Shown here: in pieces, positions 14,859 to 47,699 of the stretch
Layout of the letters: each line of letters starts with the position of its first letter
How positions within the stretch are numbered: position 1 is the stretch's first letter
DNA from: Candidatus Eiseniibacteriota bacterium
Lineage (GTDB): Bacteria > Eisenbacteria > RBG-16-71-46 > SZUA-252
Assembly: GCA_005893165.1 (NCBI GenBank)
Contig: VBOR01000061.1
Coordinates: 36,555 to 100,554 of the forward strand
Reading direction: 5' to 3'
DNA: 64,000 nt
Position numbers and translations under genes: made by a program
Notes under the pieces: generated by a model
What the model saw: only the letters and a program-made list of their open reading frames with translations
Database searches by the model: none
Told to the model about the DNA's origin: nothing

Positions 14859-15377
14859 ATCACGCGCGTCGCCCTGATCGGTTTGCCGGGGTCGGGTAAG
14901 AGCACCGTGGCGCCTCTTCTGGCGCACCGCCTCCGTTGCCCGAGCCTGGACCTGGATCTCACGATCGAGCAAGGCGCCGGCCGCTCGGTGGCCGCCCTCT
15001 TCGAGGAGGGGGAGGCCCTCTTTCGCGAGCTGGAGTCCAGGGCGCTGGAGGAGGCTCTGGGCCGCGCCGGATCGCTCGTCCTGGCGTGCGGAGGAGGGAT
15101 CCTCGAGCGGAAGGAGAATCGCGAGCTCCTGGTCGCGCGGGCGCGGATCGTGTGGCTCGCGGTCGATCCGGAGCGCGCGGCCTCGAGGCTCACGGGTCCC
15201 GGCGCCAAGACGCGCCCGCTCCTGCAAGGAACGGTTCCCGTGGCGGAGCGGCTCCGCGCGCTCCTTCGAGAGCGCCGCGCGGGGTACGCCGCCGCGGCGG
15301 ACACGATCGTGGATACGTCGCAGCTCACTCCCGAGGAGGTCGCGGATCGGATCGCGGAGCGGCTCGCCGTCGCATAA
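14859..15377 (+). CDS. aroK: Shikimate kinase
   Basis: Walker A GLPGSGKST and shikimate kinase core. The conserved N-terminus (I)TRVALIGLPGSGKST extends upstream of the first canonical start (TTG 14883, which would remove the first P-loop Gly). An in-frame ATC at 14859 follows the SD gagga. No ATG/GTG/TTG lies between the upstream stop and 14883. Confidence 0.7.
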   Translation: MTRVALIGLPGSGKSTVAPLLAHRLRCPSLDLDLTIEQGAGRSVAALFEEGEALFRELESRALEEALGRAGSLVLACGGGILERKENRELLVARARIVWLAVDPERAASRLTGPGAKTRPLLQGTVPVAERLRALLRERRAGYAAAADTIVDTSQLTPEEVADRIAERLAVA

Positions 15378-15381
15378 CGCC

Positions 15382-15942
15382 TTGGGATCGATCCGGATCG
15401 TGGGCGGCGAGCTGCGGGGTAGGCGCATTCGCGTTCCGGACCGCGGCGTGCGTCCGACCTCGGACCGCACCCGCGAGGCGGTCTTCGACGTTCTGGGAAC
15501 CTCCCCGGTCGTGAACGCCCGTGTGCTGGACCTCTACGCCGGCACCGGGGCGCTCGGGATCGAGGCGCTGAGCCGCGGAGCGCTCGAGGCCCATTTCCTC
15601 GAGGGATCGAAGGCCGTGGCGCGCGCGCTGCGGGAGAATCTGATGCAGCTCGGTCTCTCGGGCCGCGGGACGGTCCACGAGGCGGATCTGTCCCGGATCG
15701 ACCTTCCGCCCGGGGCGGCGCCGCCCTTCGATCTCGTGTTTCTCGATCCGCCGTACGCCGGGAACGCGGGCGCGCTCTGGCTGGAGCGCCTGGGCGGGCT
15801 CCCCTGGTCCCCACGGGGAGGGGTCGTGGTGTACGAGCGGCGGAAGGGGACCGAGGCCGTGCCGCCCTCGGGATTCGGGATCTTGACCGAGCGCACCTAT
15901 TCGGATACGACGGTCACGTTCTATCGCGCCCTCACGGCCTGA
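15382..15942 (+). CDS. rsmD: 16S rRNA (guanine966-N2)-methyltransferase RsmD
   Basis: IRIVGGELRGRRI N-terminus, AdoMet motif VLDLYAGTGALG and DPPY. Start is either TTG 15382 or the in-frame ATC 15391, which would give the canonical MRIVGG N-terminus. Confidence 0.8.
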   Translation: MGSIRIVGGELRGRRIRVPDRGVRPTSDRTREAVFDVLGTSPVVNARVLDLYAGTGALGIEALSRGALEAHFLEGSKAVARALRENLMQLGLSGRGTVHEADLSRIDLPPGAAPPFDLVFLDPPYAGNAGALWLERLGGLPWSPRGGVVVYERRKGTEAVPPSGFGILTERTYSDTTVTFYRALTA

Positions 15943-15960
15943 GGCCGTGAGGCGGGGAGG

Positions 15961-45222: not shown

Positions 45223-45928
45223 GCTCGAAGCGCTCCTTCAGCTCCAGCGCTACGACCTCAAGCTGATGGAGGCCCAGCGCAAGCGGGACGAAATTCCACG
45301 TAGGCGCGAGGCCCTGAAGGCCGCGCTGGATCAGGCGAAGGCCGCGCATGAGCGTGCCAAGAAGGATCTGGAGCACGTCCGGCACGAGCGCCGGGCGCAG
45401 GAGAAAGAGATCGAGGTGGTCCAGAGCGAGGGAACGAAGCTCGAGCGCCAGCTCCTGGACGTGAAGACCAACAAGGAATACCAGGCCATGCTCCACGAGA
45501 TCGCCGCTTTGAAATCCAAGCGCTCCGATCGCGAGACCGTGGTGCTGGAGCATTTCGAGAAGGAAGAGGCGATCGTCGCGCAGGCGAAGCAAGCGGAGCA
45601 GCGGATCGCGGAGGAAGAGCGTAAGCTCAAGGCCGGGGAAGCGGAGCTGGAGCGGGAAGGCGCCGCGCTCGACCAGGCGATTCACTCCATCAAGGTGGAT
45701 CGCGACCAGGTCCGTCCCGGGATCCCGGCACCGCTCCTCGCCCGCTACGACCGTCTTTCCGGCACGCGCGACGCCGTGGCCGTGGCCGAGGTGAGGAAGG
45801 GCGCGTGCGGCGCCTGCTTCAAATCGCTCACCCCTCACGCGGCGCAGGAAATGCGCCGCCTCGACGCCGTTCATCAATGCGAAGCATGCGGAAGGATCCT
45901 CATCTGGACCGAGGGGAGCGCCGCCTAG
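45212..45928 (+). CDS. C4-type zinc-ribbon coiled-coil protein (COG1579/DUF164-like)
   Basis: Long coiled-coil ([20 protein letters not shown]...) plus a C-terminal CGACFKSL...CEACGRIL zinc ribbon. Confidence 0.7.
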
Positions 45929-45941
45929 CGGAGGAATCGCC

Positions 45942-47699
45942 ATCAAGGTCTTCGGAGCGTTACGACATCTCTTCCCCTACCTGAAGCGCCACCGCCTCTC
46001 CCTGATCCTGGGTGTCGTCGCGGTCCTGGGCACGACTGTGTTCCAGGTGTGGGCTCCCTGGATCGTCCGCGAGGCGATCAACCATCTGCAGCACGGCACC
46101 ACCCGCGCCGCGCTGGCGCGCGACGCCGGCCTCATCCTGCTCGCGGTCGCGCTGCAGGGGCTCTTCCTCTTCCTCATGCGAATGACGCTGATCCGCTCCT
46201 CGCGGAGGATGGAGTACGAGCTTCGGAACGACCTCTACGATCACATGCAGCGGCTGCACGCGTCGTTCTATCGCCGGACGCGTGTCGGTGATCTCCTGTC
46301 GCGCACGACGAACGACCTGGACGCCGTCCGGAACTTCCTCGGGCCGGGCATCATGTACTTCGCGAACACCATCGTGACCTTCTGCTTCGCGGTGGCGCTC
46401 ATGCTGCGCATCGACGTCCGGCTGACGCTCTTGGCGCTGGTCCCCCTGCCGATCCTGTCGCTCGCCGTCGCGCGGCTCGGCGGCAAGATCCATCACTTCT
46501 ACGAAGCGATCCAGGACCGGTTCGGCAAGATGACCGCCAAGGCGCAGGAGACCCTGGCCGGGATCCGCGTCGTGAAGGCGTACGTGGAGGAGGAAGGGGA
46601 GTATCACGCCTTCCGCGCCATCCACGAGGACTACACTGAGCAAAATCGAAAGATGATCCAGCTCTGGTCCGCCATGATGCCCCTGATGGGGCTTCTCGGC
46701 GGGATCGCGAGCGCGGTCGTGCTGTGGGTCGGAGGCTCCGCCGTCGTCCATGGGCGGATCTCGCTAGGGGATCTGGTCGCCTTCCAGATCTATTTGTCGA
46801 TGCTGTTGTGGCCCATGATTTCGCTGGGCTGGGTCTCGAATCTCTTCCAGCGTGGCGAAGCCTCCATGGCCCGGATCCGCGCCATCATGGACGAGCCGAT
46901 CGAGGAGGATCTCGAGGCGCCCAGGCTGCGGAGGCAGGAGCGGCAACGCGTGCCGATCGAGCTCAAGAACGTCGGATTCAAGTACCCCGCCTCGGACCGG
47001 TTCGTCCTGCGCGGCCTGAACCTTTCGGTGACGCCGGGGGAGCGGGTCGCCATCGTCGGCCGCACCGGCGCGGGGAAGTCCACCTTGCTCGCACTGCTGG
47101 CACGGCTGTTCGATCCGACGGAGGGCGCGGTCCTGGTGGGCGGGCGCGATGCGCGCGAGTGGACGCGCGCGGACCTGCGACGGGTGTACGGGATCGTGCC
47201 GCAAGAGAGCTTCCTCTTCTCCGACACCATCCGCGCGAACGTGGCGTTCGGGTTCGATGAGCACGGCGCCGTGCCCGCGGCCGAGGGTCCTCTTGCGCGC
47301 GCCGGTCTGAGGAGCGATCTGGAGACCTTCCCCCGCGGCCTCGACACCATGATCGGCGAGCGCGGAATCACCTTGTCGGGCGGACAGAAGCAGCGGGTCG
47401 CGCTGGCGCGTGCCCTGGCGCTGGAGCGGCCGGTGCTCCTGCTCGACGACGCCTTCGCGAGCGTGGATCCGGGAACCGAAGAGGAGATCTTGCAGTCGCT
47501 GTTCGAGCACCGCACGCGGCCCACGCTGCTCCTCGCGACCCATCGGCGCTCGGCGTTGCTCCGGGTCGACCGGATCGTGGTGCTGGACGAAGGGCGGATC
47601 GTGGATACGGGGACGCACGCGGATCTGATCCGCCGCGGCGGGCTCTACGCCGATCTCTACCATCGCGAGGAGATGGTGGAAGAGCTGGAGGCGCTCTAG
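45942..47699 (+). CDS. ABC exporter subunit 1 (fused TMD-NBD; canonical signature but Walker B Glu replaced by Asp)
   Basis: Six-TM exporter domain. Walker A GRTGAGKSTL, signature LSGGQKQRVALARAL, Walker B LLLDDAFASVD (D in place of the catalytic E). The conserved N-terminus (M)KVFGALRHLFPYLKRHR begins at an in-frame ATC 45942 that follows the SD ggagg. The first ATG (46038) would remove most of TM1. Confidence 0.8.
   Translation: MKVFGALRHLFPYLKRHRLSLILGVVAVLGTTVFQVWAPWIVREAINHLQHGTTRAALARDAGLILLAVALQGLFLFLMRMTLIRSSRRMEYELRNDLYDHMQRLHASFYRRTRVGDLLSRTTNDLDAVRNFLGPGIMYFANTIVTFCFAVALMLRIDVRLTLLALVPLPILSLAVARLGGKIHHFYEAIQDRFGKMTAKAQETLAGIRVVKAYVEEEGEYHAFRAIHEDYTEQNRKMIQLWSAMMPLMGLLGGIASAVVLWVGGSAVVHGRISLGDLVAFQIYLSMLLWPMISLGWVSNLFQRGEASMARIRAIMDEPIEEDLEAPRLRRQERQRVPIELKNVGFKYPASDRFVLRGLNLSVTPGERVAIVGRTGAGKSTLLALLARLFDPTEGAVLVGGRDAREWTRADLRRVYGIVPQESFLFSDTIRANVAFGFDEHGAVPAAEGPLARAGLRSDLETFPRGLDTMIGERGITLSGGQKQRVALARALALERPVLLLDDAFASVDPGTEEEILQSLFEHRTRPTLLLATHRRSALLRVDRIVVLDEGRIVDTGTHADLIRRGGLYADLYHREEMVEELEAL

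What the first reader, a model, noticed from the sequence alone, without database searches (positions are those of the whole stretch)
14859..47699. Conserved genes whose N-termini begin at in-frame ATC codons with no canonical start available
In at least three genes the conserved N-terminal motif starts upstream of the first ATG/GTG/TTG, and the reading frame is closed by a stop just before it. aroK: stop, then gagga-N8-ATC ACG CGC GTC GCC CTG ATC GGT TTG CCG GGG TCG GGT AAG; the only canonical start, TTG 14883, deletes the first P-loop glycine. dnaJ: TGA at 36545 then ATC CTG ACC ACG ACG CGA GAC TAT TAT GAA (J-domain DYYEILGV); the next canonical start is 30 codons inside the J-domain. ABC exporter subunit 1: ggagg-N7-ATC AAG GTC TTC GGA...(KVFGALRHLFPYLKRHR); the first ATG removes TM1. 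rsmD also has ATC CGG ATC GTG GGC giving the canonical MRIVGG. Each ATC sits at Shine-Dalgarno spacing. This suggests either genuine AUC (or nearby CUG) initiation in this lineage or systematic ATG-to-ATC miscalls. Standard gene callers would silently truncate all of these proteins.
Basis: partly seen in the sequence, partly recalled or inferred. Interest (0 to 1): 0.7.

Follow-up and report, generated by a model that had tools for sequence, protein, structure and literature searches.

The report
Genes starting at AUC and CUG codons
Four conserved genes in this soil-bacterium contig have no ATG/GTG/TTG start and most likely begin at rare near-cognate codons (ATC for two, CTG for two), a known but uncommon phenomenon that makes automatic annotation cut off their essential N-termini.

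Summary
The core observation holds. aroK, dnaJ and the first ABC-exporter subunit have conserved, selected N-terminal coding sequence upstream of any in-frame ATG/GTG/TTG. The sequence at all three sites is identical in the independent sibling assemblies that cover them (8 to 10 per site, ~99.7% identical overall), so these are not base-calling errors.

The "ATC" generalisation is only half right.
- **dnaJ:** the start is the CTG at 36551, not the ATC at 36548. It aligns with ATG/GTG in relatives, the codon before it varies, and it overlaps the grpE stop as CTGA.
- **rsmD:** it has an ordinary TTG start at 15382, which is ATG in relatives.
- **ABC1:** ATC at 45942 is well supported. An in-frame ATC/ATT sits 6-9 nt after the Shine-Dalgarno core in all 9 lineages examined, and about three quarters of database homologues are N-terminally truncated.
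- **aroK:** ATC at 14859 is plausible but species-specific. Sister lineages have CTG one codon upstream.

28 of 32 gene families compared have canonical starts in every lineage, so the effect is gene-specific. AUC and CUG starts are already documented (Deinococcus dnaA and rpsL). This is a new member of a known kind, with real consequences for annotation.

The parts
14803..14839 (+). Intrinsic-terminator-like hairpin plus T-run after pilQ. Its loop holds ATG 14815, which is out of frame with aroK here.
   Evidence: One search finds a 12-pair stem at 14803-14829 followed by TTCTTTTTTG. Searches show that the same ATG is in frame with aroK in two relatives (L185, L186) but not in the window.
14846..14851 (+). 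Shine-Dalgarno GAGGAG of aroK, 7 nt before ATC 14859.
   Evidence: GAGGAG is kept at the same place in L181, L183 and L184, with weaker forms (GAGGGG, GGAGAG) in L185 and L186.
14859..15377 (+). aroK (shikimate kinase) CDS read from ATC 14859, 172 aa. ACG 14862 is an alternative start.
   Evidence: Full-length shikimate-kinase models align from residues 2-4. The Pfam SKI profile position 1 falls at residue 10, upstream of the called GTG 14907.
15382..15942 (+). rsmD CDS with a canonical TTG start.
   Evidence: TTG GGA TCG ATC CGG ATC GTG aligns with ATG GGA TCG ATC CGG ATC GTG/GTA in L183, L188 and L189.
36537..36542 (+). SD-like GGGGAG, 8 nt before the dnaJ CTG and inside the 3' end of grpE.
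36551..37696 (+). dnaJ CDS read from CTG 36551-36553, which overlaps the grpE stop TGA 36552-36554 (CTGA).
   Evidence: the CTG is kept in the L091 group, L095 and L100, and is ATG in L098 and GTG in L011 at the same position. The preceding codon is ATC, CTC, CTT, GTT, GGC or ACG. add support (J-domain profile 1-63 maps to residues 6-68).
45930..45935 (+). SD GGAGGA of ABC exporter subunit 1.
45942..47699 (+). ABC exporter subunit 1 CDS read from ATC 45942, 585 aa. The in-frame ATC 45936, which abuts the SD, is the less likely alternative.
   Evidence: ATC/ATT sits 6-9 nt after the GGAG core in 9 lineages; most homologues are truncated; the MsbA-like model aligns from residue 5 and ABC_membrane from residue 21.
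47699..49675 (+). ABC exporter subunit 2, with a canonical GTG start sharing 1 nt with the subunit 1 stop (TAGTG).
57029..57841 (-). RskA-type anti-sigma factor CDS read from CTG 57841-57839. This codon overlaps the ECF sigma stop TGA 57840-57838 (CTGA) and has GAGGA 6 nt upstream. A second CTG lies at 57847-57845. The first canonical codon is GTG 57694 (codon 50), after the zinc-finger region.
   Evidence: Homologues begin with M or V at the aligned positions. The sequence is identical in 10 siblings. The NCBIfam anti-sigma equivalog aligns from residue 13.

Best explanation
These four genes are translated from near-cognate, non-canonical initiation codons decoded by initiator tRNA, in two different settings.

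1. **SD-directed initiation at AUC.** ABC exporter subunit 1 starts at ATC 45942 (GGAGG plus 7 nt). aroK starts at ATC 14859 (GAGGAG plus 7 nt). The weak codon probably keeps expression low.

2. **Stop-start overlap with CUG.** dnaJ starts at CTG 36551 and the anti-sigma factor at CTG 57841. Each CTG shares its last two bases with the TGA stop of the upstream partner gene (grpE; ECF sigma), giving CTGA. This is the same 4-nt overlap that elsewhere in the window reads ATGA, GTGA or TTGA. A ribosome terminating on the upstream gene, or one recruited by the nearby SD-like GGAG, re-starts on the weak codon. That yields sub-stoichiometric amounts of the downstream protein.

What is shown: the lack of canonical codons, sequence accuracy, purifying selection on the upstream codons, homology of the CTG and Ile positions to canonical starts in relatives, and SD spacing.

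What is inferred: that initiation actually occurs at these codons, the coupling mechanism, and the expression-tuning rationale. In a 67% G+C genome, the change of ATG/GTG/TTG to CTG and of ATT to ATC is also the direction mutation pressure would push weakly selected start codons.
For: **Sequence accuracy.** The aroK and dnaJ start regions are identical in all 10 independent assemblies fetched for each, the ABC1 region in the 8 of those 10 that reach it, and the anti-sigma region in all 10.

**Translation upstream of the first canonical codon.**
- dnaJ against L091: 11 synonymous and 1 non-synonymous codon changes, differences by codon position 0/0/12.
- aroK against L184: 7 synonymous, 2 non-synonymous.
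- ABC1 against L091: 7 synonymous, 5 non-synonymous, differences by codon position 3/4/10.

**Domain completeness.** From the proposed starts, family models align from position 1-4. The called starts delete the Walker A motif, about 27 J-domain positions, the start of TM1, or the zinc-finger region.

**Homology of the start position.**
- The dnaJ CTG corresponds to ATG (L098) and GTG (L011).
- The anti-sigma CTGs correspond to M or V in dozens of homologues.
- The ABC1 Ile codon is ATC/ATT in 9 lineages. In L091 it is the only near-cognate codon in the 5 open codons after an in-frame TAG. Two homologues begin with M at that residue (P0294, P0318).

**SD spacing.** All match the window's mode of about 7 nt.

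**Controls.** 64 of 64 dnaJ and 73 of 74 aroK loci from other taxa have canonical starts.

**Precedent.**
- AUC, AUU, AUA and CUG initiate at 1-2% of AUG in E. coli, with Met found at the N-terminus (10.1101/063800).
- Deinococcus dnaA starts at ATC and rpsL at CTG, shown by N-terminal proteomics (PMC2830850).
- 4-nt overlaps support termination-reinitiation (PMC10666635).
Against: - There is no protein-level or ribosome-profiling evidence. Everything is comparative.
- The aroK start is not conserved. Three lineages have CTG one codon upstream. Two lineages (L185, L186) have neither ATC nor CTG and only an ATG in the terminator loop in frame, or ACG. So the window's ATC could be incidental and ACG 14862 could be used instead.
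- ABC1: two lineages have an in-frame ATG abutting the SD, two or three codons upstream of the Ile codon, and still keep the Ile. The Ile might therefore be a conserved residue rather than, or as well as, the start. Four lineages carry that ATG out of frame as a 4-7 codon mini-ORF whose role is unknown.
- In the window both ATC 36548 (5-nt spacer) and CTG 36551 could serve dnaJ.
- Near-cognate codons are very weak in E. coli. Whether they suffice for essential genes here is assumed.
Confidence: 0.75

Rival explanations
1. Sequencing or assembly errors: the true bases are ATG (or GTG/TTG) and were miscalled.
For: The window does contain assembly defects. It lacks stretches of about 130-160 bp relative to sibling assemblies at 3385/3386, about 5660, about 20906, about 39034 and 44854.
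Against: None of those defects touches the four start sites. The start regions are base-for-base identical in every sibling assembly that covers them: 10 for aroK, 10 for dnaJ, 8 for ABC1 and 10 for the anti-sigma factor. These come from different samples, contig-naming schemes and repositories, and differ from the window by scattered SNPs elsewhere. Diverged species carry the same non-canonical codons.
Confidence: 0.01
2. The genes start at the next canonical codon, as gene callers assume, and make N-terminally truncated proteins, or they are decaying pseudogenes.
For: Every database entry for this species is called that way (P0001, P0122, P0228; 351-aa dnaJ).
Against: The truncations remove Walker A and beta1 of shikimate kinase, helix I and most of helix II of the J domain, half of TM1, or the HxxxCxxC region. 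The removed codons evolve under purifying selection with third-position changes. The genes are otherwise intact and syntenic across species.
Confidence: 0.04
3. One reading: ATC is the start codon in all of these genes, including dnaJ and rsmD, reflecting lineage-wide AUC initiation.
For: In the window each gene has an in-frame ATC near an SD-like motif. The dnaJ ATC 36548 has a 5-nt spacer.
Against: The codon before the dnaJ CTG is CTC, CTT or GTT in the relatives that also lack a canonical start, and only the CTG is shared. rsmD has TTG where relatives have ATG. The aroK ATC is GTC, GCC or AAC in most relatives. 28 of 32 families are canonical in all lineages.
Confidence: 0.05
4. Initiation really occurs at a canonical ATG of a tiny upstream or overlapping ORF, and the main frame is reached by reinitiation after the mini-ORF or by frameshifting. 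For ABC1 this would be the ATG abutting the SD in relatives. For aroK it would be ATG 14815 in the terminator loop, whose 20-codon ORF ends at TGA 14875-77 overlapping CTG 14874.
For: Mini-ORFs of 4-7 codons starting at GGAG|ATG overlap the ABC1 start in L091, L095, L098 and L100, and the ATG is in frame in L210 and L212. The aroK loop ATG is in frame in L185 and L186. The window's loop-ATG ORF ends in a CTGA configuration.
Against: The window, L093 and L099 have no such ATG upstream of ABC1. That ATG has a 0-2 nt spacer to the SD and fits the extended SD complement GGAGGTGATC, so it is probably part of the SD. I found no slippery heptamer. Reinitiation at CTG 14874 would give MIGLPGSGKS without beta1, while the five codons before it are under selection. 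The loop ATG lacks an SD and lies inside a 12-bp hairpin.
Confidence: 0.08

Closest known systems
Deinococcus dnaA (ATC start) and rpsL (CTG start), shown by N-terminal proteomics (Baudet et al. 2010, PMC2830850)
   Same: Conserved housekeeping genes begin at ATC or CTG. The codon is conserved among related species. The N-termini were mis-annotated by gene callers and recognised through conserved N-terminal sequence.
   Different: Different genes and phylum. Here there is no proteomic proof. Two of the four cases sit in a 4-nt stop-start overlap. Four cases occur within 64 kb, whereas that study reports four in a whole genome.
E. coli infC and pcnB AUU start codons (IF3-sensitive weak starts)
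   Same: An AUU/AUC-class codon is conserved across lineages as the start (ABC1: ATC/ATT in 9 lineages), with an SD at normal spacing. Presumably low, IF3-sensitive initiation.
   Different: infC autoregulation works because the product is IF3 itself. No such feedback logic is evident for an ABC exporter or shikimate kinase. IF3 dependence was not tested.
Translational coupling by termination-reinitiation at -4 overlaps (ATGA/GTGA/TTGA; Huber et al. 2023, PMC10666635)
   Same: grpE/dnaJ and sigma/anti-sigma have exactly the -4 overlap geometry and encode functional partners. Seven other genuine -4 overlaps in the window use ATG, GTG or TTG.
   Different: The overlapped start codon is CTG (CTGA). 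That paper counts only annotated starts and mentions non-canonical starts only for ATT in -5 overlaps. I found no description of CTGA coupling in the papers I searched.
Near-cognate initiation measured in E. coli (Hecht et al., 10.1101/063800)
   Same: AUC, AUU, AUA and CUG are the best non-canonical initiators, at 1-2% of AUG, and yield N-terminal Met. These are the same codons seen here.
   Different: Those are reporter measurements in E. coli. Efficiency in this uncultured lineage is unknown.

Membership tests
Non-canonical (near-cognate) bacterial initiation codons (table 11 set CTG/ATT/ATC/ATA) | No in-frame ATG/GTG/TTG at or upstream of the conserved N-terminus within the open frame | tested here: met
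   for aroK, dnaJ, ABC1 and the anti-sigma factor. Not met for rsmD (TTG 15382).
Non-canonical (near-cognate) bacterial initiation codons (table 11 set CTG/ATT/ATC/ATA) | Codons upstream of the first canonical codon are translated (purifying selection, domain completeness) | tested here: met
   (synonymous, third-position-dominated divergence). (profiles align from position 1-4 only with the extended N-termini).
Non-canonical (near-cognate) bacterial initiation codons (table 11 set CTG/ATT/ATC/ATA) | The candidate codon is homologous to a canonical start in orthologues, or is conserved as a near-cognate while its neighbours vary | tested here: met
   Met for dnaJ, the anti-sigma factor and ABC1. 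Inconclusive for aroK: ATC occurs only in this species and sister lineages have CTG one codon upstream.
Non-canonical (near-cognate) bacterial initiation codons (table 11 set CTG/ATT/ATC/ATA) | Ribosome-binding context (SD at 5-10 nt, or stop-start overlap) | tested here: met
   spacers of 7, 7, 8 and 6 nt. CTGA overlaps for dnaJ and the anti-sigma factor.
Non-canonical (near-cognate) bacterial initiation codons (table 11 set CTG/ATT/ATC/ATA) | Direct evidence of initiation (N-terminal peptide, initiation-arrested ribosome footprints, toeprint) | not testable with these tools
   Uncultured organism; no proteomic or Ribo-seq data accessible.
Termination-reinitiation coupling at -4 overlaps | Start codon overlaps the stop codon of a co-directional upstream gene by 4 nt | tested here: met
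   grpE TGA 36552-54 with dnaJ CTG 36551-53; sigma TGA 57840-38 with anti-sigma CTG 57841-39. The overlap geometry is conserved as ATGA or GTGA in relatives.
Termination-reinitiation coupling at -4 overlaps | Downstream translation depends on upstream translation | not testable with these tools
   Needs reporter constructs with premature stops in grpE or the sigma gene.
infC-type IF3-autoregulated AUU start | Expression responds to IF3 level, and the gene product feeds back on start-codon discrimination | not tested
   No infC in the window. The products here have no known link to initiation fidelity.
Programmed ribosomal frameshift from an upstream ATG | Slippery site plus stimulator connecting an ATG-initiated frame to the main frame, conserved among relatives | tested here: not met
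   By my reading of the sequences, there is no X XXY YYZ or RF2-like site between the ATG and the main frame. The ATG is absent upstream of ABC1 in the window, L093 and L099.

The most novel reading that the evidence does not exclude
This uncultured, high-GC soil lineage (Eisenbacteria/Latescibacterota-like) tolerates near-cognate start codons far more often than model bacteria. The window gives 4 of about 55 genes, roughly 7%, against about 0.05% annotated elsewhere. That would imply relaxed start-codon discrimination, for example an altered IF3, initiator tRNA or 16S decoding site. CUGA stop-start overlaps would then be a regular coupling signal, and a deeply conserved AUY start in one ABC exporter family would act as a regulatory device.
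Probability: 0.15. Interest if true: 0.7.

Novelty: new member of a known kind. Interest (0 to 1): 0.45.

Why it matters
**Annotation.** Gene callers that consider only ATG/GTG/TTG (as I recall, Prodigal is one) have truncated these proteins in every public copy I saw. About 90 of the 120 closest ABC1 homologue clusters lack the conserved N-terminal motif. dnaJ is stored without most of the first two helices of its J domain, and aroK without its P-loop. Such entries degrade family models, structure predictions and metabolic reconstructions for a poorly known phylum.

**Biology.** The window gives comparative examples of weak start codons being maintained (ABC1) or exchanged among ATG, GTG, TTG, CTG and ATC (dnaJ, aroK, anti-sigma). 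It also suggests that a 4-nt stop-start overlap can tolerate a CUG start. This last point is testable and would refine models of translational coupling.

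Tried and rejected
- **Six-frame tblastn of all ORFs against relatives.** The aim was to flag N-termini conserved upstream of canonical starts. It was useless because the relatives are so similar that all frames align. 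I replaced it with a curated start-by-start comparison.
- **Metagenome scan with aroK.** I reused these loci as a control set.
- **Apparent frameshifts and truncations** in the ABC ATPase (about 3386), pilD (about 5660), mutS2 (about 39034) and rpoD (44854). I first considered them signs of pseudogenisation or a poor assembly that could explain the finding. They are missing segments of about 130-160 bp specific to this assembly and unrelated to the start sites.
- **The ATG abutting the SD upstream of ABC1 in relatives, as the real start.** Rejected as the general start because it is out of frame in four lineages and absent in three.
- **Start of aroK at CTG 14874 by reinitiation after the loop-ATG ORF.** Rejected because beta1 would be lost and the codons before it are under selection.
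- **mutS2 flags.** Disregarded, because its N-terminus is poorly conserved and the window copy is broken.
- **Counting 'NTGA' after starts.** This over-counts overlaps. Only nine are genuine stop-start overlaps.

Full report
**What the window is.** It is a 67% G+C contig from an uncultured soil bacterium.
- The closest species-representative genome by dnaJ is a 'Candidatus Latescibacterota' MAG at 72% identity (L011).
- Several close protein homologues are named 'Candidatus Eisenbacteria'.
- Genes in order include pilMNOPQ, aroK, rsmD, coaD, glmS, ridA, selD, lepA, lepB, hrcA, grpE, dnaJ, rsmE, rpsU, mutS2, dnaG, rpoD, two ABC exporter subunits, and an ECF sigma/anti-sigma pair.
- Many independent metagenome assemblies of the same species exist at about 99.7% identity.
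- Syntenic contigs of about ten more distant species are also available.

**Checking the observation.**
- aroK: the frame is open for 33 codons upstream of ATC 14859 without any ATG/GTG/TTG. The first canonical codon, TTG 14883, lies inside GLPGSGKS.
- dnaJ: TGA 36545 is followed by ATC, then CTG. The first canonical codon is ATG 36641.
- ABC1: 49 open codons upstream hold no canonical codon.
- 'A stop just before' is true only for dnaJ.
- The rsmD claim fails. TTG 15382 precedes the ATC and aligns with ATG in relatives.

**Not sequencing error.**
- The aroK start region is identical in the window and ten sibling assemblies.
- The dnaJ region is identical in ten further sibling loci. The ABC1 region is identical in the eight of those that reach it.
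- The window does have its own defects. It lacks about 130-160 bp at five places relative to siblings, which breaks an ABC ATPase, pilD, the dprA region, mutS2 and the rpoD 3' end. None of these is near a start site.

**The missing N-termini are real coding sequence.** Between the proposed start and the first canonical codon, differences from relatives fall overwhelmingly on third codon positions.
- dnaJ against L091: 11 synonymous, 1 non-synonymous, positions 0/0/12.
- aroK against L184: 7 synonymous, 2 non-synonymous.
- ABC1 against L091: 7 synonymous, 5 non-synonymous.

Read from the proposed starts, the proteins align to family models from position 1-4.
- J domain: profile 1-63 maps to residues 6-68.
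- TIGR02349 (DnaJ): profile 1-352.
- Shikimate-kinase equivalogs: from model positions 2-4.
- MsbA-like TIGR02204: from position 4.
- Anti-sigma NF052375: from position 3.

**dnaJ starts at CTG, not ATC.**
- Window: ATC CTG ACC ACG ACG CGA GAC.
- L091 group: CTC CTG ACC.
- L095: CTT CTG ACG.
- L100: GTT CTG ACG.
- L098: GGC ATG ACC.
- L011: ACG GTG ACG.

The CTG is the shared codon and is homologous to ATG and GTG, while the preceding codon varies freely. The CTG overlaps the grpE stop (CTGA). That is the geometry that reads ATGA in L098 and GTGA in L011. In 64 dnaJ loci from other phyla a canonical start was always present.

**ABC exporter subunit 1 starts at ATC/ATT.** Nine lineages keep an in-frame ATC or ATT 6-9 nt after a GGAG core.
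- Window: GGAGGA ATCGCC ATC.
- L091: GAGGAG ATGATCCG ATT.
- L098: AAGGAG ATGGTCCG ATT.
- L095: GGAGGA ATGAACCG ATC.
- L100: GGGGGTGATGATCCG ATC.
- L093: CGGAGA ACCCCC ATC.
- L099: CGGAGA TAAAGCC ATC.
- L210: GGAGAG ATGAAG ATC.
- L212: GAGGAG ATGAAGCCG ATT.

In L091 an in-frame TAG lies five codons upstream and ATT is the only near-cognate codon available. An ATG abutting the SD occurs in six lineages. It is in frame in only two, and it fits the extended SD complement GGAGGTGATC, so I read it as part of the ribosome-binding site.

Of the 120 closest homologue clusters (66% identity or more), about 90 are N-terminal truncations lacking IGxLRHLxPYLxRH. A few begin with M exactly at the Ile position (MGSLRHL, MGPLRHL). 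Others carry long, unconserved upstream extensions. In the window ATC 45942 (7-nt spacer) is favoured over the in-frame ATC 45936, which abuts the SD.

**aroK is plausible but not conserved.** The SD is conserved: GAGGAG in L181, L183 and L184, weaker forms in L185 and L186. Amino-acid conservation begins at T-R-V/I-A-L-I-G.
- The window has CGG ATC ACG.
- L181, L183 and L184 have CTG GTC AC(G/A), with the CTG 5 nt after the SD.
- L188 has CTG ATC plus an upstream TTG.
- L185 and L186 have neither. There the ATG in the loop of the pilQ terminator hairpin happens to be in frame.

So the start of aroK wanders in this clade. In the window ATC 14859 is the best candidate and ACG 14862 the runner-up. 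In other taxa 73 of 74 aroK loci have a canonical start.

The RskA-type anti-sigma factor on the minus strand (57841-57029) has no canonical codon before codon 50, which is beyond its zinc-finger region.
- Its N-terminus reads GGA CTG GAC CTG AGC CCG CAC.
- The second CTG overlaps the ECF sigma stop (CTGA) and has GAGGA 6 nt upstream.
- Homologues begin MSPH..., VTPH..., MDVSPH... or LDVTPH... at the aligned positions.
- The species' own database entry is truncated to 221 aa.
- Ten sibling assemblies are identical at this site.

**Gene-specific or lineage-wide?** I compared 32 gene families with up to seven diverged relatives.
- 28 families have ATG/GTG/TTG at the aligned start in every lineage, with free exchange among the three codons.
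- Only aroK, dnaJ and ABC1 lack one. The mutS2 flags are unreliable.
- The window thus holds 4 non-canonical starts in about 55 genes. This is far above annotated frequencies: ATG, GTG and TTG together are about 99.95% in a survey of well-annotated genomes.
- The sample is small, and annotation elsewhere is biased against such starts.
- Of nine genuine 4-nt stop-start overlaps in the window, two use CTG.

**Mechanism.** The most economical reading is ordinary initiation by fMet-tRNA on near-cognate codons.
- It is SD-directed for the two ATC genes (spacer 7 nt, the mode for this window).
- It is overlap-coupled for the two CTG genes.
- AUC and CUG are among the four best non-canonical initiators in E. 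coli at 1-2% of AUG, and give Met at the N-terminus (10.1101/063800).
- ATC (dnaA) and CTG (rpsL) starts are proven and conserved in Deinococcus (PMC2830850).
- Reinitiation at -4 overlaps is experimentally supported (PMC10666635).
- From general knowledge, IF3 discriminates against such codons. Weak starts lower expression, and GC-biased mutation would favour CTG and ATC among the alternatives.
- Inferred, not shown: low expression of the exporter, and sub-stoichiometric DnaJ relative to GrpE and anti-sigma relative to sigma.

**Verdict.** This is a real feature that has been correctly spotted. The ATC-only interpretation is corrected to 'ATC and CTG, gene by gene'. The phenomenon is known in kind. 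Its value lies in the density of cases, the deeply conserved AUY start of one ABC exporter family, the CTGA overlaps, and the demonstrable damage to public annotations.

Noticed in passing
window 3385/3386, ~5658-5660, ~20906-20910, ~39031-39034, 44854: The window lacks about 130-160 bp present in sibling assemblies at five points. This breaks an ABC ATPase (341 aa in siblings), pilD, the dprA 5' region, mutS2 (840 aa in siblings) and the rpoD 3' end (581 aa in siblings). These look like closed-up scaffold gaps, not biology.
   Followed up: yes
window 14790-14839 and relatives L181-L189: Between pilQ and aroK a motif GGTTATACT (a -10-like TATACT) is conserved just upstream of the terminator-like hairpin and T-run. 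It could be a promoter firing into an attenuator-like 5' hairpin, or just a conserved terminator context.
   Followed up: no
relatives L091 ~17535-17555, L098, L095, L100 (upstream of the ABC1 orthologues): Mini-ORFs of 4-7 codons (for example ATG ATC CGA TTC TAG) start at an ATG abutting the SD and overlap the ATT/ATC start in another frame. They are absent from the window. They could be a leader-peptide device like those controlling some antibiotic-efflux genes, or only an extended SD.
   Followed up: partly
window 29363-30522: selD lies immediately upstream of a tRNA-Sec gene (30425-30522, anticodon TCA), which indicates a selenium-utilisation trait.
   Followed up: no
window 35209-35949: hrcA is a short form (246 aa) here and in several relatives, against 342-345 aa in L093 and L100. 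The N-terminus is intact, so the difference lies internally or at the C-terminus.
   Followed up: no
window 50789-56965: A very large (about 2058 aa) secreted S8 peptidase with multiple Ig-like/HYDIN-type domains and a FlgD_ig-like C-terminal domain. One sibling assembly lacks it at this position (L203 goes from the anti-sigma gene straight to the inositol monophosphatase gene).
   Followed up: no
locus L171 (Ga0182025_1030735) ~805: This is the only one of 74 unrelated aroK loci without a canonical start: ...GGA TGG CTG GAT AGC GTC CCG GGC GGA CAC CTC ATC CTC ATC GGx. It is possibly another CTG/ATC-initiated aroK in a different lineage.
   Followed up: no
window 14815-14877: The ATG in the terminator loop opens a 20-codon ORF (MEGPRFFFGRRGAFGSRASP*). 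Its TGA overlaps the in-frame CTG 14874 of aroK, giving another CTGA configuration. It was judged an unlikely start because beta1 would be lost.
   Followed up: partly
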